IMG/VR virus record: IMGVR_UViG_2778261688_000006
Strand: one strand, 5' to 3'
Origin: a virus
Taxonomy: Duplodnaviria > Heunggongvirae > Uroviricota > Caudoviricetes
DNA: 8,820 nt
Shown here: positions 1-8,820 of the stretch, piece by piece
How the letters are laid out: the number at the start of each line of letters is the position of its first letter
How positions within the stretch are numbered: position 1 is the first letter of the stretch
The notes under the pieces: generated by a model
Databases searched by the model: none
What the model was told of the DNA's origin: nothing
Seen by the model: the letters and a program-made list of their open reading frames with translations, nothing else
Made by a program: the position numbers and the translations under genes

Positions 1-318
1 AACGAATGAGTAAAGAGCGCCGCGCGTTGTTTCCGGTATATCGACTTTGATGTACGGGTTAATTTGTCTGGCGACAGTGGCAAGGTCTTTATTCAAGAGT
101 GCTTTGCATTCTGCTTTGGTATACGTTTTACCGAGCATGATGTCTTTTCCGGTGTGTCCGTGACATACAGTCCATACGCCAACGATATCTTTGTATGGTA
201 CGTAGCTGACACCTTCCAGACCATCGTTACCACTTGGGCCAGTAATTAACACTGATGCTATAGCAATTGCTCCGCCACCAATAGCAGCAGCAACGGCTTT
301 TCGTAATGATGGAGGCAT
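1..318 (-). CDS. rrrD: SAR endolysin (phage 21 R21 / DLP12 RrrD-like lysozyme), partial: N-terminal 106 codons, C-terminus lies beyond the window start
   Basis: Reverse-strand translation from ATG at 318..316 gives [64 protein letters not shown]..., i.e. a Gly/Ala-rich signal-anchor-release helix followed by a T4-lysozyme-like E..D..T catalytic region. The ATG overlaps the pinholin stop (TAATG). Not in the ORF track because it runs off the window. Confidence 0.88.
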
Positions 319-533
319 TATTCACCTCTCGCAGCCTTGCGCTTATCTTCTTTAATCTTGAAATAAAGGTTTGTCAGGTACGTCAGCAGGCCAAATACCA
401 GGCTACCCAGCACACCTATTGCTGCCCACTGTGAGGGCGTGACTTTATCGAGCAGCTGTAAAAACCAGTAACCGGCACTACCTGCTGAGGTGCCATAGGC
501 GACACCCGTTGTTAACTTATCCATGGATTTCAT
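318..533 (-). CDS. essD: Class II holin / pinholin (phage 21 S21, DLP12 EssD-like), 71 aa, with dual-start motif MKSMDK
   Basis: The ORF-track 318..578 frame contains [71 protein letters not shown]: two TM helices and a charged C-terminus. I chose ATG at 533 (the track's upstream extension is probably not translated); GAGGTGG Shine-Dalgarno lies upstream; a second in-frame ATG at 524 fits the holin/antiholin dual start. Confidence 0.88.
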
Positions 534-661
534 AACCCCACCTCGCAGACAAAGCGGGTGTAAATTGAGGGAATACAACGTATCGCAAAAAAGCAGAAAC
601 GTAACAGACTCGGAGTCAGTGAATAACTCAGGTATTGGGTTATCAGCTAATATCGAGACTC

Positions 662-694
662 AAAAAATGGAAAAACCCGCTCGACGGCGGGTTT
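662..694 (-). terminator. Candidate intrinsic terminator oriented on the minus strand, about 130 nt upstream of the pinholin start
   Basis: 8-bp GC-rich stem AAACCCGC (673-680) / GCGGGTTT (687-694) with loop TCGACG; on the minus strand the stem is followed by TTCCATTTTTT (reverse complement of 662-672). The plus-strand tail is weaker (TTTAAG). Confidence 0.45.
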
Positions 695-1038
695 AAGCTG
701 TGTGACGAAGTAACCACTCTTAACAGCATAACCAATTTTTTACGTACGTAAACCACTAAATGATATTTGCGAGAATGCTACCGAGTATTGAAAACACCAC
801 TACAAATACATAAGCAAATCTCAACAAATAACCAACAAATAATTTCCAGCGTTATTTTTAGCTGGTTTAAATTGAATCTTCAAATTATAGAGCACTTATA
901 AATAACAGCCATTAATATAAATTGGCTAATAGATTTATTTTTATTCAGCCAAGAGCCATGAATAGGATTCGATAGAAAAAGTTCAGATAAAAATAGAGAT
1001 CTACTTCACAAATCAAATGAGAAACCAAAACTTACATC

Positions 1039-1067
1039 TTGAAATAATCACATTGATTAGATGAATA
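1039..1067 (+). promoter_or_regulatory. Candidate sigma70 promoter for the porin gene (weak)
   Basis: TTGAAA (1039-1044), 17-nt spacer, TGAATA (1062-1067), about 55 nt upstream of the porin ATG in an AT-rich region. Picked by eye only. Confidence 0.2.
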
Positions 1068-1120
1068 TTTATCGCGCAGTGACATCATTTTTTAATAATA
1101 GTTCAAAAAAAGGGCTCACG

Positions 1121-2203
1121 ATGAAAAAATTAACAGTGGCAATTTCTGCTGTAGCTGCATCAGTACTGATGGCGATGTCTGCTCAGGCAGCTGAAATTTA
1201 TAATAAAGACAGTAACAAGCTGGATCTGTACGGGAAAGTTAATGCTAAGCACTACTTCTCCTCTAATGATGCAGATGATGGTGATACTACTTATGCCCGT
1301 CTTGGCTTCAAAGGTGAAACCCAAATCAACGATCAACTGACTGGTTTCGGTCAGTGGGAATATGAATTCAAAGGCAACCGCGCTGAATCTCAAGGTTCCT
1401 CCAAAGATAAAACCCGTCTTGCCTTCGCTGGCCTGAAATTCGGTGACTACGGCTCCATCGATTATGGCCGTAACTACGGTGTAGCATACGATATTGGTGC
1501 ATGGACCGACGTTCTGCCAGAATTCGGTGGCGATACCTGGACCCAAACAGATGTATTCATGACTGGTCGCACCACAGGTGTTGCAACTTATCGTAACAAT
1601 GACTTCTTTGGTCTGGTTGATGGTCTGAACTTTGCTGCTCAGTATCAGGGTAAAAATGACCGCACTGACGTAACTGAAGCTAATGGTGATGGTTTCGGTT
1701 TCTCCACTACTTATGAGTATGAAGGATTCGGTGTAGGTGCAACCTATGCTAAATCTGACCGCACTAATAATCAGGTTATCTACGGTAACAACAGCCTGAA
1801 TGCATCTGGTCAAAATGCTGAAGTATGGGCAGCTGGTCTGAAATATGATGCGAACAACATCTATCTGGCCACCACCTATTCTGAAACCCAGAACATGACT
1901 GTTTTTGGTAATAACCATATTGCCAACAAAGCACAAAACTTCGAAGCTGTTGCACAATATCAGTTCGACTTCGGCCTGCGTCCATCCGTTGCTTACCTGC
2001 ATTCTAAAGGAAAAGACTTGGGTGTTTGGGGTGATCAGGACCTGGTTGAATATGTTGATGTAGGTGCAACCTATTACTTCAACAAAAATATGTCCACTTT
2101 TGTTGACTACAAAATCAACCTGATTGATAAGAGCGATTTCACGAAAGCATCTGGCGTTGCTACCGATGATATCGTTGCTGTAGGTATGGTTTACCAGTTC
2201 TAA
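1121..2203 (+). CDS. nmpC: OmpC/OmpF-family general porin (NmpC / Lc / OmpD-like), 360-aa precursor; prophage-encoded lysogenic-conversion moron
   Basis: ORF track 1061..2203; true start taken as ATG 1121 ([23 protein letters not shown]|AEIYNKD signal peptide with AQA-A cleavage site). Has the porin hallmarks of aromatic/Gly-rich beta-strands and a C-terminal ...VGMVYQF ending in Phe. It sits between Q and the lysis genes on the opposite strand, as nmpC does in DLP12 and lc in PA-2. Confidence 0.93.
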
Positions 2204-2227
2204 TTTGATTACTAAAAGATATGTTGT

Positions 2228-2298
2228 GGGAGGCTTTGCCTCCCCAACATATAAGTGGCTCCCTCAAGCCACTTCCTTTAGAAGCACAACCTTGCTTC
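2228..2298. repeat. Cluster of three short GC-rich hairpins between the porin stop and the Q stop
   Basis: GGGAGGC-TTT-GCCTCCC (2228-2244); AAGTGGCT-CCCTCA-AGCCACTT (2253-2274); GAAGCA-CAACCT-TGCTTC (2281-2298). None has a clean U-tract; possibly a structured leader RNA or terminator-like elements. Confidence 0.3.
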
Positions 2299-2340
2299 TA
2301 ACTATATAAACCTTCTGTTATATATTACCCTTTATTTTTG

Positions 2341-2366
2341 GGGGCGTTTCAACGCCCCATTTTTAA
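2341..2366 (+). terminator. Candidate rho-independent terminator for the porin transcript
   Basis: GGGGCG-TTTCAA-CGCCCC stem-loop (2341-2358) followed by ATTTTTAATAACTTTT on the plus strand; the minus-strand side is A-rich, so it is unidirectional. Confidence 0.5.
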
Positions 2367-2391
2367 TAACTTTTAGTAAATAATTGGCGTA

Positions 2392-2775
2392 TTAATTAGA
2401 GTTATTAACAACGATATCCATCTCTAACCGGATATCTAATGCCATTAACATCCCTTCAATTATGCCCTCAGCCTTTTGTAACCTTTTCCCGATATAACCA
2501 TCAGAGCAGCAATGCTTACCTGCCAGTGACATGAATGTCATACCGACTATATAATAATCTACTAATAAATCGTGCAAATCGCTGTTGTTCTTTTTCAGAC
2601 GGGCCATGCACCCGCAAATGATCATCGCGTCATCGTCACAACATTGCGGGCGAGATTTTACTTTTGAAGGAATTAATCCCTTAAAACCGGCGGCAATGGA
2701 CGACCAGGTCACATCTTCATGATTATTAGCCGCCCACGCTCCCCAACGCTCAAGAACCATCTGAATATCACGCAT
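2392..2775 (-). CDS. quuD: Late-gene antitermination protein Q (DLP12 QuuD-like / phage 21-82 type), 127 aa
   Basis: ORF track 2392..2790 starts at a TTG; I chose ATG at 2775 ([22 protein letters not shown]...), which is preceded by GGAG. Cys-rich region [16 protein letters not shown]...KHCCSDGY fits the Q-family zinc-binding fold. Gene order Q - porin - S - R matches DLP12. Confidence 0.88.
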
Positions 2776-2860
2776 CAACTTACTCCACAAAAATCAGACC
2801 AAAACGCCAATTACAAGCAAAAATCAACAAAACAGTATTAGTTGATTGTTATCTCTGACT

Positions 2861-2998
2861 TCATACTCCTGCTCCTGTCAGGGTTTTGGCGTAACTCTTC
2901 AGTATTCGGTAATCGGTCAAAACAGAACCGGGGAAACGATATAAGCGCAGGCGCACCCAGCGGCGGCGAAGACGTTCTGCCATATAAGACTCAAACAT
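2861..2998 (-). CDS. ylcG: Small basic ORF between rusA and Q (YlcG-like position), about 45 aa
   Basis: Frame [45 protein letters not shown]; its ATG overlaps the rusA stop (TGATG), suggesting translational coupling. An alternative start is ATG 2983 (40 aa). Too short for the ORF track; identity is from position and size only. Confidence 0.4.
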   Translation of the reverse strand: MFESYMAERLRRRWVRLRLYRFPGSVLTDYRILKSYAKTLTGAGV

Positions 2999-3360
2999 CA
3001 TTCATCTCCCAGTTCAGTGATGGTCAGTTCCAGCCTCCCACCTTTGGTAACAGGCATCTTCACAACGCGGTAATCAACGACCTGAGCATCATCCAGCCAG
3101 AAACCTGCTTTGGTGAGTGCGTCAAAAGCGGCCTTTTGCAGATTATCCAGGTCACGGCGACGGCGATCCGGCATGTGGCACTCAATGCGGATTTTCACAG
3201 GCATAGCCAGGCCGATATCCAGCATTGCGTTTTTAATGATTCGGGCGACGTTATCGCGGTATGCCTGCCCCTCTGCGCTGATGTGCGTGCGCCCGCGATT
3301 ATGGCGGTAATAGCGATTATTGCTCGGAGGCCAGGGTAATGTGATGCTGTAGGTATTCAC
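2998..3360 (-). CDS. rusA: Holliday-junction resolvase RusA, 120 aa
   Basis: [26 protein letters not shown]...[10 protein letters not shown]...[11 protein letters not shown] is recognisably RusA. The first codon is GTG (reverse complement of 3358-3360), preceded by a GAGGGGGG Shine-Dalgarno. Confidence 0.93.
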
Positions 3361-3380
3361 GCCTTAATAACCCCCCTCTT

Positions 3381-3575
3381 TCAGCCAGATAACCTGTGTT
3401 CTCGCCATACCTTCCAGCGCGCATTCTTTTGCATATGCAGCATCGACTTGCTTGGCATGCCCTTTACCGGCAATCTTCTGTATGCGCTAAACCTAGATAG
3501 AATCCACTCTGTGCACATTGAAGCCCGCTCTATGCTTCCTTTCAGGTATTGAAGGGATTGAGATGGGCTAAGCAT
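3381..3575 (-). CDS. Small nin-region ORF with a NinF-like N-terminus; possibly a frameshifted or chimeric pseudogene
   Basis: ORF track 64 aa, [19 protein letters not shown]...; the first ~19 residues resemble lambda NinF (from memory) but the expected CxxC...CxxC zinc ribbon is absent. An alternative frame over 3364-3486 encodes ...[27 protein letters not shown] with no start codon, ending 3 nt before rusA. Confidence 0.3.
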
Positions 3576-3915
3576 TATTGGCCTCCTGCATCAGGAGAAA
3601 GACAATCATGGCGGCGCGGAGAGGTCTGGTATCAAATATTGGGCTTACGCCTTTTGCATCCACACACCATTCAGTTAACTGGTCTAAGATAGAAATCCTG
3701 TATTTCTCAATAATCGGCCATGAAGCGCTCGGATCATTGCAGTAGTCAGGCAAATGATTTAATGGCTCAAAAGTTGTATCAGCATTTCCGTAATACCATT
3801 TGTTGGTGTTATTCCCTGATGTTTCCGGTTTACTTGCCCAAAGGCCTTTAAAAATTATGTCTCCTACCATTCTGTTAATTTCAAAATCACTTAACTGTGA
3901 ATAATCCATTGTCAT
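3568..3915 (-). CDS. Hypothetical nin-region protein, 115 aa, function unknown
   Basis: ORF track 3568..3951; I chose ATG at 3915 ([24 protein letters not shown]...) because it overlaps the ninE stop as ATGA, implying coupling. No motif I can assign. Confidence 0.55.
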
Positions 3916-4088
3916 TTCCTCGCACGATATCTTAGCCACCGGATATCCCACAGGTGAGCCGTGTAATTGAAGGTTTTTACGTCAGATTCTTTTGGGATTG
4001 GCTTGCGTTTATTTCTGGAGCGTTTCGTTGGAAGGTATTTGCAGTTTTCGCAGATGATGTCGGTGATACTTCGTCGCTGTCGTCTCAT
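3912..4088 (-). CDS. ninE: NinE-like protein, 58 aa
   Basis: [58 protein letters not shown] sits inside ORF-track 3912..4178; ATG 4088 is preceded by AGGAGG and overlaps the methyltransferase stop (ATGA). Confidence 0.8.
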
Positions 4089-4612
4089 TCGTACCTCCTG
4101 ACGCCCTGCCCGATCGCCATCAATGCCGCTTTGGATACAGTAGTAAACATCCGTCGAGGACTGATGAACGGTCGCCAAATCAGCAGCATGGAGCCTTTGC
4201 TGTTTCCCTTCTTCTCCAGCCCCGTCGATGGTTCGATAAAATTAATCCGTCCATCAGTGATAATGCGAACTTCGTCGACACTCTCCAGAGCCTTGCTGAA
4301 CCATCCGACTGACATATCCTCTGGCACAAGCATCACTACCGTCTGTCGCTGTTGTATGCACTGCTCAGCGGCTTTTTCCACCCACGGCCTGATATTGCTG
4401 TACGGTGGGTTATTCCAGATTGCACCGTGGCTTACCCACTCAGAATTGAGCGCGTCGTCGGCCTCAGTTAGCCAGTGAGCACACAGAGCATTTTTGTCGC
4501 TCGCTGCCGAATCCAGCCAGAATCCAAACTCAATATCCAGTGCATCAAAAAGCCAAAGCGGCGTTTGCCAGCAGTCCTTGTCGTGTGCTGGCGTATTTGA
4601 TTTGATAGTCAT
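4085..4612 (-). CDS. Phage Dam-like DNA N6-adenine methyltransferase (orphan, no adjacent restriction enzyme), about 175 aa
   Basis: ORF track 4085..4672; likely start ATG 4612 ([38 protein letters not shown]...), which overlaps the ninB-fragment stop (ATGA). Contains the amino-methyltransferase catalytic motif NPPY ([11 protein letters not shown]). An alternative start is ATG 4630. Confidence 0.82.
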
Positions 4613-4731
4613 GCAGCCCGATCTCCCCATCTCGCTTTCCACTCCAGAGCCAGTCTCGCTTCGTCTGACCACTTAACGCCACGCTCTGTACCGAATGCCT
4701 GTATAAGCTCTAATAGCTCCGCAAATTCGCC
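4609..4731 (-). pseudogene. ninB: NinB 3' fragment (C-terminal ~40 codons only); 5' end removed at the junction
   Basis: Minus-strand frame ends ...[40 protein letters not shown], which I recognise as the lambda NinB C-terminus. Upstream of 4731 the same frame runs antisense through N with no NinB-like sequence, so the ORF-track 4609..4863 ORF is an artefact. Confidence 0.75.
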
Positions 4732-4957
4732 TAACCGCCCTATTCTCTCGCTGAATCGCAAACCGAAATCACGAGTAGAAAGCGCACTAAATCCGATAGA
4801 CCTTACAGTGCTGGCTGAATACCACAAACAGATTGAAAGCAACCTGCAACGTATTGAGCGCAAGAATCAGCGCACATGGTACAGCAAGCCTGGCGAACGC
4901 GGCATAACATGCAGTGGACGCCAGAAAATTAAGGGAAAATCGATTCCTCTTACCTAG
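4732..4957 (+). pseudogene. N: Antiterminator N, 3' fragment (about codons 34-107); no start codon, arginine-rich boxB-binding N-terminus missing
   Basis: Plus frame 4733..4957 translates NRPILSLNRKPKSRVESALNPIDLTVLAEYHKQIESNLQRIERKNQRTWYSKPGERGITCSGRQKIKGKSIPLT* (lambda N C-terminal part). Upstream in-frame sequence back to the TGA at 4598 has no ATG/GTG/TTG and no N-like residues. Confidence 0.85.
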
Positions 4958-5509
4958 TTACTTAGATATTGGCCTTGGCTTTATCTCAATATTATATGGA
5001 TCATAGCTGGCAACTAATTCAGTCCAGTAAATATCCTCAATAGGGAATAATATATGCTTCCCGTTCCATCGGGAAAAAGTTTTGTTCAACACACCAAGCT
5101 CAATCAACTCACTAATGTATGGGAATTGTTTTGATGTAACCACATACTTCCTGCCTTCATTAAGGGCTGCGCACAAAACCATAGATTGCTCTTCTGTAAG
5201 GTTTTGAATTACTGATCGCACTTTATCGTTTTGCATCTTAATGCGTTTTCTTAGCTTAAATCGCTTATATCTGGCGCTGGCAATAGCTGATAATCGATGC
5301 ACATTAATTGCTAGCGAAAATGCAAGAGCAAAGACGAAAACATGCCACACATGAGGAATACCGATTCTCTCATTAACATATTCAGGCCAGTTATCTGGGC
5401 TTAAAAGCAGAAGTCCAACCCAGATAACGATCATATACATGGTTCTCTCCAGAGGTTCATTACTGAACACTCGTCCGAGAATAACGAGTGGATCCATTTC
5501 TATACTCAT
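4958..5509 (-). CDS. sieB: Superinfection exclusion protein SieB, 183 aa
   Basis: ORF track 4958..5512 begins at a TTG; ATG at 5509. Hydrophobic N-terminal segments (MYMIVIWVGLLLL..., VFVFALAFSLAI) fit a membrane protein. Position and orientation match lambda sieB, antisense within the pL operon and convergent with N (adjacent stop codons). Confidence 0.88.
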   Translation of the reverse strand: MSIEMDPLVILGRVFSNEPLERTMYMIVIWVGLLLLSPDNWPEYVNERIGIPHVWHVFVFALAFSLAINVHRLSAIASARYKRFKLRKRIKMQNDKVRSVIQNLTEEQSMVLCAALNEGRKYVVTSKQFPYISELIELGVLNKTFSRWNGKHILFPIEDIYWTELVASYDPYNIEIKPRPISK

Positions 5510-5636
5510 CAAACTGTAGGGGTTGTAATAGTTTATCCGATTTCTCGCTGTAGGGGTACACGAGAACCACCGAGCCTGATGTGGTTAAAAGACAGGCACA
5601 ATCTTTACTACCGCAATCCACTATTTAAGGTGATAT

Positions 5637-5723
5637 ATGGAAGAAGAATTTGAAGAGTTCGAAGAGCATCCTCAGGATGTGATGGAACAATACCAGGACT
5701 ATCCGTATGACTACGACTATTGA
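5637..5723 (+). CDS. Lambda orf28-like small acidic ORF, 28 aa
   Basis: ATG 5637: MEEEFEEFEEHPQDVMEQYQDYPYDYDY*, overlapping the ral start. Position corresponds to lambda orf28. Too short for the ORF track. Confidence 0.4.
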   Translation: MEEEFEEFEEHPQDVMEQYQDYPYDYDY

Positions 5724-5907
5724 TAAAAATCAATGGTGTGGACAATTCAAGCGATGCAATGGATGCAAGCTGCAATCGGAATGCATGGTTAAGCCTGAAG
5801 AAATGTTTCCTGTAATGGAAGATGGGAAATATGTCGATAAATGGGCAATACGAACGACGGCAATGATTGCCAGAGAACTTGGTAAACAGAACAACAAAGC
5901 TGCCTGA
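5707..5907 (+). CDS. ral: Ral, restriction alleviation protein (modulates type I R-M), 66 aa
   Basis: MTTTIDKNQWCGQFKRCNGCKLQSECMVKPEEMFPVMEDGKYVDKWAIRTTAMIARELGKQNNKAA matches lambda Ral as I remember it. Confidence 0.93.
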   Translation: MTTTIDKNQWCGQFKRCNGCKLQSECMVKPEEMFPVMEDGKYVDKWAIRTTAMIARELGKQNNKAA

Positions 5908-5953
5908 TAGTGGCCTTTATTTTTGGCATAAATAACAGAATAAACACTGCACT

Positions 5954-5981
5954 GTGTATTCATTCCAACGAGTGAATACAC
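5954..5981. repeat. Perfect 9-bp inverted repeat with 10-nt spacer in the ral-ea10 intergenic region
   Basis: GTGTATTCA (5954-5962) ... TGAATACAC (5973-5981); no U-tract follows, so it looks more like a protein-binding palindrome or RNA-processing hairpin than a terminator. Confidence 0.4.
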
Positions 5982-6043
5982 GGAGCAATGTCGCTCGTAA
6001 CTAAACAGGGGCCGACTTGTTCTGATTATTGGAAATCTTCTTT

Positions 6044-6069
6044 GCCCTCCAGTGTGAGGGCGATTTTTT
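6044..6069 (+). terminator. Candidate rho-independent terminator inside the pL operon (tL2-like), just upstream of ea10
   Basis: GCCCTC-CAGTGT-GAGGGC stem-loop (6044-6061) followed by GATTTTTTA. Confidence 0.6.
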
Positions 6070-6089
6070 ATCTATGAGGATATGAATAG

Positions 6090-6458
6090 ATGTCAAACAT
6101 CAAAAAATACATCATTGATTACGACTGGAAAGCATCAATAGAAATTGAAATCGACCATGACGTAATGACAGAGGAAAAACTTCACCAGATTAATAATTTC
6201 TGGTCAGACTCTGAATACCGACTCAATAAACACGGCTCTGTATTAAATGCTGTATTAATCATGCTGGCGCAACATGCTCTGCTTATAGCAATTTCAAGCG
6301 ACTTAAATGCATATGGTGTTGTGTGTGAGTTCGACTGGAATGATGGAAATGGTCAGGAAGGATGGCCTCCAATGGATGGTAGCGAAGGAATAAGAATTAC
6401 CGATATCGATACATCAGGAATATTTGATCCAGATGATATGACTATCAAAGCCGCCTGA
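6090..6458 (+). CDS. ea10: Lambda early protein Ea10, 122 aa
   Basis: ORF track 6090..6458, MSNIKKYIIDYDWKASIEIEIDHDVMTEEK...; 183-bp spacing from ral, as in lambda. Confidence 0.88.
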   Translation: MSNIKKYIIDYDWKASIEIEIDHDVMTEEKLHQINNFWSDSEYRLNKHGSVLNAVLIMLAQHALLIAISSDLNAYGVVCEFDWNDGNGQEGWPPMDGSEGIRITDIDTSGIFDPDDMTIKAA

Positions 6459-6483
6459 GCGCGGCGTTACCGCATACCAATTA

Positions 6484-6504
6484 CGCTTCACTCGAGGCGT
6501 TTTT
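6484..6504 (+). terminator. Candidate hairpin plus U-tract upstream of cIII (terminator or cIII mRNA regulatory structure)
   Basis: CGCTTC-ACTC-GAGGCG (one G-U pair) followed by TTTTTCGTT, about 25 nt before the cIII Shine-Dalgarno (AAGGAG). Confidence 0.35.
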
Positions 6505-6530
6505 CGTTATGTATAAATAAGGAGCACACC

Positions 6531-6695
6531 ATGCAATATGCCATTGCAGGGTGGCCTGTTGCTGGCTGCCCTTCCGAATCTTTACTTGAACGAATCACCC
6601 GTAAATTACGTGACGGATGGAAACGCCTTATCGACATACTTAATCAGCCAGGAGTCCCAAAAAATGGATCAAACAATTATGGCTATCCAGACTAA
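6531..6695 (+). CDS. cIII: CIII, FtsH/HflB protease inhibitor stabilising CII, 54 aa
   Basis: Hand translation from ATG 6531: [54 protein letters not shown]; AAGGAG Shine-Dalgarno upstream. Too short for the ORF track. Confidence 0.9.
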   Translation: MQYAIAGWPVAGCPSESLLERITRKLRDGWKRLIDILNQPGVPKNGSNNYGYPD

Positions 6696-6807
6696 ATTCA
6701 CTATCGCCACTTTTATTGGCGATGAAAAGATGTTTCGTGAGGCCGTCGACGCTTATAAAAAATGGATATTAATACTGAAACTGAGATCAAGCAAAAGCAT
6801 TCACTAA
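6664..6807 (+). CDS. kil: Kil, host cell-division (FtsZ) inhibitor, 47 aa
   Basis: C-terminal 47 codons of ORF-track 6538..6807: [47 protein letters not shown]. The upstream part of that ORF is an out-of-frame overlap with cIII and is not counted. Confidence 0.88.
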
Positions 6808-6882
6808 CCCCCTTTCCTGTTTTCCTAATCAGCTTGGCATTTCGCGGGCGATATTTTCACAGCCATTTTCAGGAGTTCAGCC

Positions 6883-7179
6883 ATGAACGCTTATTACATT
6901 CAGGATCGTCTTGAGGCTCAGAGCTGGGCGCGTCACTACCAGCAGATCGCCCGTGAAGAGAAAGAGGCAGAACTGGCAGACGACATGGAAAAAGGCCTGC
7001 CCCAGCACCTGTTTGAATCGCTATGCATCGATCATTTGCAACGCCACGGGGCCAGCAAAAAAGCCATTACCCGTGCGTTTGATGACGATGTTGAGTTTCA
7101 GGAGCGCATGGCAGAACACATCCGGTACATGGTTGAAACCATTGCTCACCACCAGGTTGATATTGATTCAGAGGTATAA
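6883..7179 (+). CDS. gam: Gam (short GamS form), RecBCD nuclease inhibitor, 98 aa; the long-form N-terminal extension is frameshifted
   Basis: ORF track 6883..7179, [60 protein letters not shown].... The GamL start ATG at 6762 ([24 protein letters not shown]...) is in a different frame and hits a stop after 49 codons. Confidence 0.93.
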
Positions 7180-7184
7180 AACGG

Positions 7185-7970
7185 ATGAGTACAGCACTCG
7201 CAACGCTGGCTGGGAAGCTGGCTGAACGTGTCGGCATGGATTCTGTCGACCCACAGGAACTGATCACCACTCTTCGCCAGACGGCATTTAAAGGTGATGC
7301 CAGCGATGCGCAGTTCATCGCATTACTGATCGTTGCCAACCAGTACGGCCTTAATCCGTGGACGAAAGAAATTTACGCCTTTCCTGATAAGCAGAATGGC
7401 ATCGTTCCGGTGGTGGGCGTTGATGGCTGGTCCCGCATCATCAATGAAAACCAGCAGTTTGATGGCATGGACTTTGAGCAGGACAATGAATCCTGTACAT
7501 GCCGGATTTACCGCAAGGACCGTAATCATCCGATCTGCGTTACCGAGTGGATGGATGAATGCCGCCGCGAACCATTCAAAACCCGCGAAGGCAGAGAAAT
7601 TACGGGGCCGTGGCAGTCGCATCCCAAACGGATGTTACGGCATAAAGCCATGATTCAGTGTGCCCGTCTGGCCTTCGGATTTGCGGGTATCTATGACAAG
7701 GATGAAGCCGAGCGCATTGTCGAAAATACCGCATACACTGCAGAACGTCAGCCGGAACGCGACATCACTCCGGTTAACGATGAAACCATGCAGGAGATTA
7801 ACACTCTGCTGATTGCCCTGGACAAAACATGGGATGACGACTTATTGCCGCTCTGTTCCCAGATATTTCGCCGCGACATTCGCGCATCGTCAGAACTGAC
7901 ACAGGCCGAAGCAGTGAAAGCTCTTGGATTCCTGAAACAGAAAGCCTCTGAACAGAAGGTGGCTGCATGA
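7185..7970 (+). CDS. bet: Bet (Red beta) single-strand annealing protein, 261 aa
   Basis: ORF track 7185..7970, [66 protein letters not shown]...; its stop overlaps the exo start (ATGA). Confidence 0.97.
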
Positions 7971-8647
7971 CACCGGACATTATCCTGCAGCGTACCGGGA
8001 TCGACGTGAGAGCTGTCGAACAGGGGGATGATGCGTGGCACAAATTACGGCTCGGCGTCATCACCGCTTCAGAAGTTCACAATGTGATAGCAAAACCCCG
8101 CTCCGGAAAGAAATGGCCTGACATGAAAATGTCCTACTTCCACACCCTGCTTGCCGAGGTTTGCACCGGTGTGGCTCCGGAAGTTAACGCTAAGGCGCTG
8201 GCCTGGGGAAAACAGTACGAGAACGACGCCAGAGCCCTCTTTGAGTTCACTTCCGGCGTGAATGTTACTGAATCCCCGATCATCTATCGCGACGAAAGTA
8301 TGCGCACCGCCTGCTCTCCCGATGGTTTATGCAGTGACGGCAACGGCCTTGAACTGAAATGCCCGTTTACCTCCCGGGATTTCATGAAATTCCGGCTCGG
8401 TGGTTTCGAGGCCATAAAGTCGGCTTACATGGCCCAGGTGCAGTACAGCATGTGGGTGACGCGAAAAGATGCCTGGTACTTTGCCAACTATGACCCACGA
8501 ATGAAGCGTGAAGGCCTGCATTATGTCGTGGTTGAGCGGGATGAAAATTACATGGCGAGTTTTGACGAGATGGTGCAGGAGTTCATCGAAAAAATGGACG
8601 AGGCACTGGCTGAAATTGGTTTTGTATTTGGGGAGCAATGGCGATGA
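7967..8647 (+). CDS. exo: Lambda exonuclease (Red alpha), 5'-3' dsDNA exonuclease, 226 aa
   Basis: ORF track 7967..8647, [65 protein letters not shown].... Confidence 0.97.
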
Positions 8648-8820
8648 AGCATCCTCACGATAATATCCGGGTAGGTGCGATCACTTTCGTCTACTCCGTT
8701 ACAAAGCGAGGCTGGGTATTTCCCGGCCTTTCTGTTATCCAAAATCCACTGAAAGCCCAGCGGCTGGCTGAGGAGATAAATAATAAACGAGGGGCTGTAC
8801 CGGAACCAGATTGGCGATAA
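8638..8820 (+). CDS. Lambda orf60a-like protein, 60 aa
   Basis: ORF track 8638..8820, [50 protein letters not shown]...; overlaps the exo 3' end, as orf60a does in lambda. Confidence 0.75.

What the first reader, a model, noticed from the sequence alone, without database searches (positions are those of the whole stretch)
4732..8820. Intact Red/anti-restriction operon stranded without its promoter or antiterminator
ral, ea10, cIII, kil, gam, bet and exo are all full-length with no internal stops, but pL and nutL are deleted, N is a fragment, and candidate intrinsic terminators remain in the operon (6044-6069, 6484-6504). Their only upstream transcription would be read-through antisense to the methyltransferase and ninB fragment. 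Either the ORFs are kept for another reason (recent deletion, or expression from a cryptic promoter) or the module is silent cargo. Kil is toxic, so silent-but-intact is plausible.
Basis: inference. Interest (0 to 1): 0.55.

Follow-up and report, generated by a model that had tools for sequence, protein, structure and literature searches.

The report
Promoterless Red operon in deleted prophage
This is a lambda-like prophage that recently lost its repressor, early promoters and replication genes in one deletion, leaving intact but probably silent recombination genes; this is ordinary, except that the deletion ends at a base in gene N where dozens of unrelated prophages also break.

Summary
Window 4733-8799 is the lambda pL operon from N codon 34 to orf60a. 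orf28, ral, ea10, cIII, kil, bet and exo are full length, and gam keeps its 98-aa form. pL, nutL and N residues 1-33 are absent, and three terminator hairpins remain.

Both arms of the window are 100% identical to a prophage in E. coli AJ1. That prophage still holds the missing 3,708 bp: ninB 5' part, ren, P, cII, cro-like gene, repressor, nutL and N 5' part. The ORFs are therefore intact because the deletion is recent, not because selection kept them.

No credible plus-strand promoter lies near the operon, so it is most likely silent cargo, like recET in the Rac prophage. A second deletion fuses orf60a to the 3' end of an integrase gene.

One result was unexpected. The N-side endpoint (GTTA|ACC, Val33/Asn34) is shared to the base by at least seven independent natural deletions running leftward and many running rightward. 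A second cluster lies 16 nt upstream (GGTA|AGC). The cause is unknown.

As stated, the finding is a new member of a known kind. The hotspot deserves follow-up.

The parts
4609..4733 (-). 3' fragment of ninB (last 125 nt), left arm of deletion 1
   Evidence: Window 1-4733 equals AJ1 locus L001 3001-7733 at 100%. ninB is annotated at L001 7609-8049.
4732..4733 (.). Deletion-1 junction: a TA dinucleotide shared by both parents; 3,708 bp are missing relative to AJ1
   Evidence: BLAST arms overlap by 2 nt and the flanks were printed. The junction is absent from 5,426 complete E. coli genomes, the GTDB species representatives, IMG/VR and the JGI metagenomes.
4733..4957 (+). N fragment: codons 34-107 plus stop, with no start codon and no arginine-rich (ARM) RNA-binding part
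   Evidence: Alignment to lambda and AJ1 N. No Pfam hit. The first in-frame start is a GTG at 4808.
4958..5512 (-). sieB (superinfection exclusion), on the strand opposite to the pL operon
   Evidence: Pfam SieB, E 1e-29. RefSeq annotation of the identical AJ1 gene.
5637..5723 (+). orf28, intact
   Evidence: Read from the sequence. Lambda annotation places orf28 at 34271-34357.
5707..5907 (+). ral (restriction alleviation), 66 aa, identical to lambda
6042..6070 (+). Intrinsic-terminator-like hairpin plus T6 between ral and ea10 (position of lambda tL1, from memory)
6090..6458 (+). ea10 (DUF2528), 122 aa
6483..6505 (+). Intrinsic-terminator-like hairpin plus T5 upstream of cIII (position of lambda tL2a, from memory)
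6518..6576 (+). cIII mRNA thermoregulator element
   Evidence: Rfam RF01804, 88.5 bits.
6531..6695 (+). cIII, 54 aa
6664..6807 (+). kil, 47 aa
6883..7179 (+). gam, 98-aa form intact; the 138-aa frame starting at 6762 is broken by a 1-bp insertion at 6866
7185..7970 (+). bet (RecT-family annealase), 261 aa
7967..8647 (+). exo (YqaJ-type exonuclease), 226 aa
8638..8799 (+). orf60a, truncated after 54 of its called codons; contains a terminator-like hairpin at 8708-8730 (position of lambda tL3, from memory)
8793..8820 (+). Deletion-2 junction (7-nt microhomology GGCTGTA, 8793-8799) joining orf60a to the 3' part of a lambda-family integrase gene of the type found next to torS
   Evidence: The last 21 nt lie in an integrase remnant next to torS in E. 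whittamii. Many E. coli genomes align from window 8793 onward. The sequence is not in the AJ1 loci examined.
2526..2555 (+). Only consensus-like plus-strand promoter upstream (GTGACA-18-TATAAT), antisense inside quuD
   Evidence: 12.5 bits in the position-weight-matrix scan.
2341..2365 (+). Strong terminator after the porin gene; expected to block read-through from the porin promoter
   Evidence: -13.9 kcal/mol, z -3.7.

Best explanation
The window is part of a lambdoid prophage that has just been disarmed by deletion.

Deletion 1 removed 3,708 bp between a TA in ninB and a TA at N codons 33/34. It took out the ninB 5' part, ren, P, cII, the cro-like gene, the repressor, both early promoters, nutR, nutL and the RNA-binding part of N. 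Deletion 2, at a 7-nt microhomology, fused orf60a to the 3' end of the integrase gene.

The genes orf28, ral, ea10, cIII, kil, gam, bet and exo now have no promoter and no nut site. At least three intrinsic terminators remain, so these genes are most likely transcriptionally silent. They are intact simply because too little time has passed for mutations to accumulate.

A deletion that removes the repressor is survivable only if it also removes or disables pL, N and pR. This explains why the endpoints bracket the whole immunity region.

Shown: the anatomy, the identity to an undeleted relative, the absence of promoter and nut signals, and the recurrence of such deletions. Inferred: silence, recency in years, and the survivorship argument.
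For: - Identity: both arms are 100.000% identical (4,733 and 4,068 nt) to the E. coli AJ1 prophage, where the 3,708-bp segment is present and annotated.
- nut sites: nutL and nutR boxB lie in the AJ1 segment, and none is in the window.
- Promoters: no plus-strand promoter-like site occurs in 3800-8820, and the best position-weight-matrix score in 4085-4730 is 7.6 bits against 11.9 for lambda pL.
- Terminators: hairpins at 6042, 6483 and 8708, and the porin terminator at 2341.
- Junction type: 2-nt and 7-nt microhomologies, typical of illegitimate recombination.
- Natural analogues: independent deletions with the same architecture and intact recombination genes occur in L002 and two further complete genomes, L133 and AST198.
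- Toxicity: derepressing the pL operon kills cells through kil (PMC3961180).
- Literature: loss of N in defective E. coli prophages has been noted (PMC6379469).
Against: No expression data exist. The consensus scans are crude and cannot exclude a weak or non-sigma-70 promoter. A near-consensus plus-strand promoter at 2526-2555 could send antisense transcripts toward the operon. The junction is found in no public collection searched, so its age, and whether it really exists in a living strain, rest on this window alone. AJ1 carries its prophage at att-lambda, whereas the window ends in a different integrase, so AJ1 is a close relative and not the literal parent.
Confidence: 0.8

Rival explanations
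1. The operon is still expressed at a useful level from a cryptic promoter, for example read-through from the quuD-antisense site at 2526-2555 or a weak internal promoter. The host keeps it for recombination, anti-restriction or RecBCD inhibition.
For: There is an 11/12 consensus site at 2526-2555 on the plus strand, downstream of the porin terminator. gam, bet and exo are also intact in other natural deletion derivatives.
Against: That site is 2.2 kb from the junction and 3.1 kb from ral, across untranslated antisense RNA that Rho would be expected to terminate (inference). Hairpin terminators at 6042 and 6483 lie before kil, gam, bet and exo, and no nut site is present. Zero substitutions relative to AJ1 means retention needs no selection. 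The other derivatives are also young or rare, at 1-5 contigs each.
Confidence: 0.1
2. The junctions are artefacts (mis-assembly, chimeric read or in-silico splice), and the real genome carries an intact immunity region.
For: Neither junction, nor either chimeric ORF, occurs in any collection searched. The second junction lies only 21 nt from the window end.
Against: De Bruijn mis-joins need a shared k-mer, but the overlaps here are 2 and 7 nt. The N-side endpoint coincides to the base with junctions present in long-read complete genomes and several independent assemblies. An arbitrary splice would hit that base about once in hundreds of tries.
Confidence: 0.06
3. The module is kept as a reservoir. 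It is silent in the host but is rescued by recombination into infecting lambdoid phages, so it persists through phage-level rather than host-level selection.
For: Lambda acquires DNA from defective prophages at measurable rates, largely through Red (PMC3945230). The window has 98.5% identity to lambda over 4 kb.
Against: This does not explain integrity here, because the identity to AJ1 already does. It cannot be tested with sequence alone.
Confidence: 0.12

Closest known systems
Rac cryptic prophage recE/recT of E. coli K-12 (activated by sbcA mutations)
   Same: An exonuclease/annealase recombination pair sits intact in a defective lambdoid prophage and is not expressed. It becomes active only through promoter-creating mutations or capture by a phage (PMC3945230).
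   Different: Rac keeps its repressor and its early-left promoter, and silence there is by repression. Here the promoter, the operators and the repressor gene are physically deleted. The genes are lambda exo/bet/gam, not recE/recT.
DLP12-type cryptic lambdoid prophages
   Same: The same right-arm module (ninE, rusA, ylcG, quuD, nmpC/ompC-like porin, essD) and the same mode of decay by internal deletions (PMC6379469). One natural analogue (L002) sits at the DLP12 site argU.
   Different: From my own knowledge, K-12 DLP12 retains only a truncated exo. This element keeps the whole Red region. It ends in an integrase of the type found at torS, which differs from the one at argU.
Wild-type lambda pL operon
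   Same: Gene order, near-identical proteins, the cIII thermosensor and the terminator hairpins.
   Different: It lacks pL/oL, nutL and N residues 1-33, so the defining N-antitermination control circuit is gone.
Engineered defective lambda prophages for recombineering (DY330 type)
   Same: A non-excisable, non-replicating lambda remnant carrying gam, bet and exo (strain list in PMC3961180).
   Different: Those strains deliberately keep cI857, pL and N so that Red can be induced. This natural remnant lost exactly those parts. One natural relative (L140) places N(1-33) directly before a gam fragment, bet and exo, downstream of the repressor region, which is closer to the engineered layout.

Membership tests
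Lambda Red recombination module (Exo/Bet/Gam) | YqaJ-type 5'-3' exonuclease gene, full length | tested here: met
   Window 7967-8647, 226 aa, 220/226 identical to lambda Exo; Pfam YqaJ E 1.4e-30.
Lambda Red recombination module (Exo/Bet/Gam) | RecT-family single-strand annealing protein immediately upstream and overlapping exo | tested here: met
   Window 7185-7970, 261 aa, 260/261 identical to lambda Bet; Pfam RecT E 2.7e-33.
Lambda Red recombination module (Exo/Bet/Gam) | Gam RecBCD inhibitor | tested here: met
   The 98-aa form at 6883-7179 matches Pfam Gam over 1-98 of 98 positions, E 3.4e-65. The long 138-aa frame is broken at 6866.
N-antiterminated lambda pL operon | pL promoter with oL operators upstream of N | tested here: not met
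   The window joins ninB directly to N codon 34. No plus-strand promoter-like site lies nearby.
N-antiterminated lambda pL operon | nutL (boxA/boxB) in the transcript | tested here: not met
   No boxB match within 3 mismatches anywhere in the window. It is present in AJ1 at L001 11169-11183, inside the deleted segment.
N-antiterminated lambda pL operon | N protein with its N-terminal arginine-rich RNA-binding motif | tested here: not met
   Only codons 34-107 remain, with no start codon and no Pfam N36 hit.
N-antiterminated lambda pL operon | Intrinsic terminators within the operon that require antitermination | tested here: met
   Hairpin plus T-run at 6042-6070, 6483-6505 and 8708-8740. Their function as terminators was not tested.
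Cryptic (defective) lambdoid prophage | Loss of the immunity and replication modules | tested here: met
   3,708 bp are missing relative to AJ1: repressor, cro-like gene, cII, P, ren.
Cryptic (defective) lambdoid prophage | Loss of excision functions | tested here: inconclusive
   orf60a is fused to the last part of an integrase gene, which implies loss of xis and most of int. However, only 21-28 nt lie inside the window.
Silent recombination cargo of the Rac recET / sbcA type | No expression in the resident state; activation by promoter fusion | not testable with these tools
   This needs RNA or phenotype data. Sequence only shows the absence of promoter and nut signals.

The most novel reading that the evidence does not exclude
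Two positions 16 nt apart in lambda-type N genes, GGTA|AGCGC at Val28/Ser29 and GTTA|ACCGC at Val33/Asn34, may be targets of a site-specific DNA break or recombination activity. Candidates include a homing-type endonuclease leaving 2-nt TA ends, or a TA-specific transposase. Such an activity would repeatedly generate the deletions that disarm lambdoid prophages. The window would be one product of that process rather than of random illegitimate recombination followed by selection.
Probability: 0.3. Interest if true: 0.75.

Novelty: new member of a known kind. Interest (0 to 1): 0.4.

Why it matters
As stated, the finding is a textbook step in prophage decay. It shows one deletion that turns a dangerous prophage into harmless cargo while leaving a complete, lambda-grade recombination and anti-restriction cassette that incoming phages could recapture.

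What may matter more is that the endpoint is not random. If base-precise breakage in N is a general route by which E. coli disarms lambdoid prophages, it would provide a mechanistic handle on how cryptic prophages arise. That question is usually treated as random decay plus selection. It would also predict which prophages, including Shiga-toxin phages with lambda-type N, are prone to becoming non-inducible.

Tried and rejected
- Exact-match scans for the junction found nothing. The 40-mer and 27-mer were scanned in the GTDB species genomes, IMG/VR and the JGI metagenomes, and a 301-nt probe was run on 5,426 complete E. coli genomes. Look-ups of the two chimeric ORFs also found nothing.
- An IS element at the hotspot (IS-promoted adjacent deletions) is not supported. 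The IS copies in close relatives lie in ylcG and between ral and ea10, not in N. No N allele interrupted by an IS at the site was seen in IMG/VR.
- A hairpin or cruciform at the site is not supported. DNA folds of both strands are no better than shuffles.
- Longer patchy homology guiding the joints gave only marginal results, at about the 2% tail and chosen after the fact.
- The motif GKTAASCGC as a sufficient target was tested. A third copy lies in the cro-like gene at L001 9689, but no junctions at it were found in IMG/VR. The power of this test is unknown, so the result is inconclusive.
- The apparent age of the L002-type deletion was checked. The 2% divergence of metagenome contig L128 is clustered more than 1.6 kb from the junction, so it reflects recombination, not age.
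- A literature search for published tL1/tL2/tL3 coordinates and for a known N-gene deletion hotspot found nothing usable. The terminator names are therefore from memory.
- dN/dS against lambda was computed (0.11) and judged uninformative for the period after the deletion.
- The AJ1 torS-torT interval was examined and is empty, so AJ1 is not the literal parent.
Full report
**What is in the window**

The left 4.7 kb carries, on the minus strand, the right arm of a lambdoid prophage. It holds essD, a porin gene on the plus strand, quuD, ylcG, rusA, a DUF1364 fragment, ninX, ninE, an N6-adenine methyltransferase gene and the last 125 nt of ninB.

From 4732 the plus strand is lambda 35262 to 31196 at 98.5% identity, with a single 1-bp indel. 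It runs N codons 34-107 (4733-4957), sieB on the opposite strand (4958-5512), orf28, ral, ea10, cIII, kil, gam, bet, exo and most of orf60a.

Protein comparison with lambda shows every one of these genes full length and nearly identical. Pfam and Rfam agree. One correction is needed: only the 98-aa Gam is intact, because a 1-bp insertion at 6866 breaks the 138-aa frame annotated in lambda.

**Where it comes from**

Among 5,426 complete E. coli genomes the best match is isolate AJ1 (NZ_OZ547217.1). Window 1-4733 and 4732-8799 are each 100.000% identical to its prophage. In AJ1, however, 3,708 bp separate the two arms.

That segment is annotated as the 5' part of ninB, ren, replication protein P, cII, a cro-like HTH gene, a LexA-family repressor, a 103-aa hypothetical gene and the 5' part of N. 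It also holds the nutR and nutL boxB sequences. The two arms overlap by a TA dinucleotide.

AJ1's own prophage already lacks 813 bp spanning the O/P boundary relative to strain LD22-1.

The last 21 nt of the window are not in the AJ1 loci examined. They lie inside the 3' part of a lambda-family integrase gene that sits next to torS in E. whittamii and in many E. coli. Homology to that integrase starts at 8793, while homology to orf60a ends at 8799. This gives a 7-nt microhomology, GGCTGTA.

The element has therefore suffered at least two deletions. One removes immunity and replication. The other apparently removes orf63 through most of int. AJ1 has an empty torS-torT interval and carries its copy at att-lambda, so AJ1 is a very close relative, not the literal parent.

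Neither junction, nor either chimeric ORF, occurs in any collection I could search.

**Transcription signals**

A consensus scan finds no plus-strand promoter-like site in 3800-8820. A position-weight-matrix scan calibrated on lambda pL (11.9 bits) gives at most 7.6 bits in 4085-4730. The window as a whole has fewer sites of at least 8 bits (7) than shuffled sequence (about 19).

The porin gene, which points toward the operon, is followed by a strong terminator at 2341-2358. The only pL-grade plus-strand site is GTGACA-18-TATAAT at 2526-2555, antisense inside quuD and 2.2 kb from the junction.

Hairpin-plus-T-run terminators stand at 6042, 6483 and 8708. By position these correspond to lambda tL1, tL2a and tL3. 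I recall those names and could not verify them in the literature held here.

There is no boxB anywhere in the window.

**Why the ORFs are intact**

Zero differences from AJ1 in 8.8 kb means the deletion is very young. At commonly cited E. coli clock rates this is at most centuries, which is a rough inference of mine.

dN/dS against lambda is about 0.11 (bet 0.02, exo 0.13). All of that divergence is shared with the undeleted AJ1 copy, so it predates the deletion. 'Recent deletion, silent cargo' is therefore sufficient.

Derepressing the pL operon kills cells through kil (PMC3961180). It follows that a deletion removing the repressor can survive only if it also removes pL and pR or disables N. 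This explains endpoints in N and ninB.

The closest precedent is recET of the Rac prophage, which is completely silent in K-12 unless activated by sbcA mutations or captured by lambda (PMC3945230). Loss of N from defective E. coli prophages has also been remarked on (PMC6379469).

**An unexpected regularity**

Three complete genomes (H56-58, for example O9:H10 Res13-Lact-PEB20-37-A) carry a cryptic prophage at argU with an independent ninB-to-N deletion and intact ea10, cIII, kil, gam, bet and exo. Its left endpoint differs from the window's (AJ1 L001 7988 against 7733). Its right endpoint is identical to the base.

Following this up gave seven DNA-verified junctions of the form '...x|AACCGCCCTATTCTC' with unrelated left partners:

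| Junction | Left partner |
|---|---|
| window | ninB 3' part |
| L002 type | ninB 5' part; also in IMG/VR and two JGI contigs |
| L072 | beside a late (morphogenesis) gene of a tailed phage |
| L132 | about 100 nt upstream of a holin gene |
| L133 | about 125 nt upstream of essD, with the whole Red operon intact |
| L136-138 | beside a phosphatase gene and Q |
| AST198 (complete genome) | a P22-like prophage whose erf and anti-RecBCD genes are stranded in the same way |

The N alleles differ among these (149-158 of 158 nt identical). The events are therefore independent.

The site also works in the other direction. A search with N residues 1-33 returned dozens of distinct chimeric ORFs that keep '...VSAKPV' and then run into fragments of ral, gam, kil, orf63, orf60a and other sequences. 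Of the 25 chimeras whose foreign part begins directly after V33, 24 start with a codon beginning with A (my count from the sequences). DNA of three of them (L135, L140, L141) shows the left block ending in exactly ...CCAGTTA.

A second cluster ends at Val28. Five DNA-verified cases (L143-L147) all end in ...TTGGGGTA.

In a tally of 177 protein clusters, I counted downstream-replaced chimeras within N residues 1-50. About 29 end at residues 33-36 (positions beyond 33 arise from chance matches), about 12 end at 28-30, and about 11 end elsewhere.

The two sites read GGTA|AGCGC and GTTA|ACCGC. Every partner site whose parent sequence is known also has TA at the joint (and my reading of ral, orf60a and orf63). 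Each variant is rare, at 1-5 contigs, which suggests many short-lived events.

In complete genomes, 883 carry a lambda-type N region and 637 of those match at least 80% of a 300-nt probe spanning the site.

**What the hotspot might be**

Selection for inactivating N explains why deletions ending in N are seen at all. It cannot give single-base precision, and it cannot explain use of the site in both directions.

Retention of TA on whichever side is kept fits one of two things. The first is a break leaving 2-nt TA ends. The second is TA-microhomology joining at a position that breaks unusually often.

I found no IS at the site and no DNA hairpin. Longer guiding homology was only marginal. A third copy of the shared motif in the cro-like gene showed no junctions in IMG/VR, with unknown power. 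Site 1 is the HpaI site (GTTAAC) of N, but site 2 is not a GTTAAC site. The mechanism remains open, and I found no description of it in the literature available here.

**Verdict**

The finding as written is correct and ordinary. It describes a freshly crippled lambdoid prophage whose Red and anti-restriction genes are promoterless, nut-less and most likely silent, and are intact because the deletion is recent. That makes it a new member of a known kind. The base-precise recurrence of its N-side endpoint is the part that merits further work.

Noticed in passing
window 4732-4733; loci L002, L072, L132, L133, L136, L139 (leftward), L135, L140, L141 (rightward), L143-L147 (second site): The N-side deletion endpoint (GTTA|ACC, Val33/Asn34) recurs to the base in many independent prophage deletions running in both directions. 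A second cluster lies 16 nt upstream (GGTA|AGC). The mechanism is unknown.
   Followed up: partly
window 8793-8820: A second novel junction fuses orf60a, through a 7-nt microhomology (GGCTGTA), to the 3' part of an integrase gene of the type found next to torS. This implies loss of xis and most of int. Only 21-28 nt are visible.
   Followed up: partly
window 6762-6914 (insertion at 6866): The 138-aa Gam reading frame annotated in lambda is frameshifted by a 1-bp insertion, and only the 98-aa form is open. RefSeq annotates this 98-aa form for the identical AJ1 gene and for other E. coli prophages.
   Followed up: partly
window 2526-2555 (+): A near-consensus sigma-70 site (GTGACA-18-TATAAT, 11/12) lies antisense inside the Q-type antiterminator gene quuD. 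Its position recalls lambda's antisense promoter paQ.
   Followed up: no
window 4560-5512 (-): The deletion places the ninB fragment, the methyltransferase gene, ninE, ninX, rusA and quuD directly downstream of sieB on the same strand. No intrinsic terminator is predicted between them, and a chimeric 84-aa ORF (4609-4863) spans the junction. No convincing sieB promoter was predicted either.
   Followed up: partly
L001 8410-9192 (E. coli AJ1): The undeleted relative lacks 813 bp spanning the 3' end of O and the 5' end of P compared with strain LD22-1. This leaves a 783-bp fused 'replication protein P', so that prophage is probably already replication-defective.
   Followed up: partly
L140 5001-6678 (NCBI GCA_015139035.1): A natural prophage in which N(1-33) is fused in frame to the C-terminal part of Gam, directly followed by bet and exo, downstream of the repressor region. 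N, sieB, ral, ea10, cIII, kil and the tL1/tL2-like terminators are removed, much like engineered recombineering constructs.
   Followed up: no
window 1061-2203 (+) and 2341-2358: An intact OmpC/NmpC-like porin gene with its own strong terminator sits between Q and the lysis genes. It is a self-contained conversion gene that should stay expressed in the remnant.
   Followed up: no
L001 9689-9697: A third copy of the motif shared by the two N hotspots (CAGTTAAGCGCC, 11/12 identical to site 1) lies in the cro-like gene. No deletion junctions at it were found in IMG/VR.
   Followed up: partly
E. coli O157:H7 genomes (H171-H184): This lineage has a different N truncation. Only the first 112 nt of the 300-nt probe match, ending around N codon 20, and the match is annotated as part of a site-specific integrase gene.
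   Followed up: no
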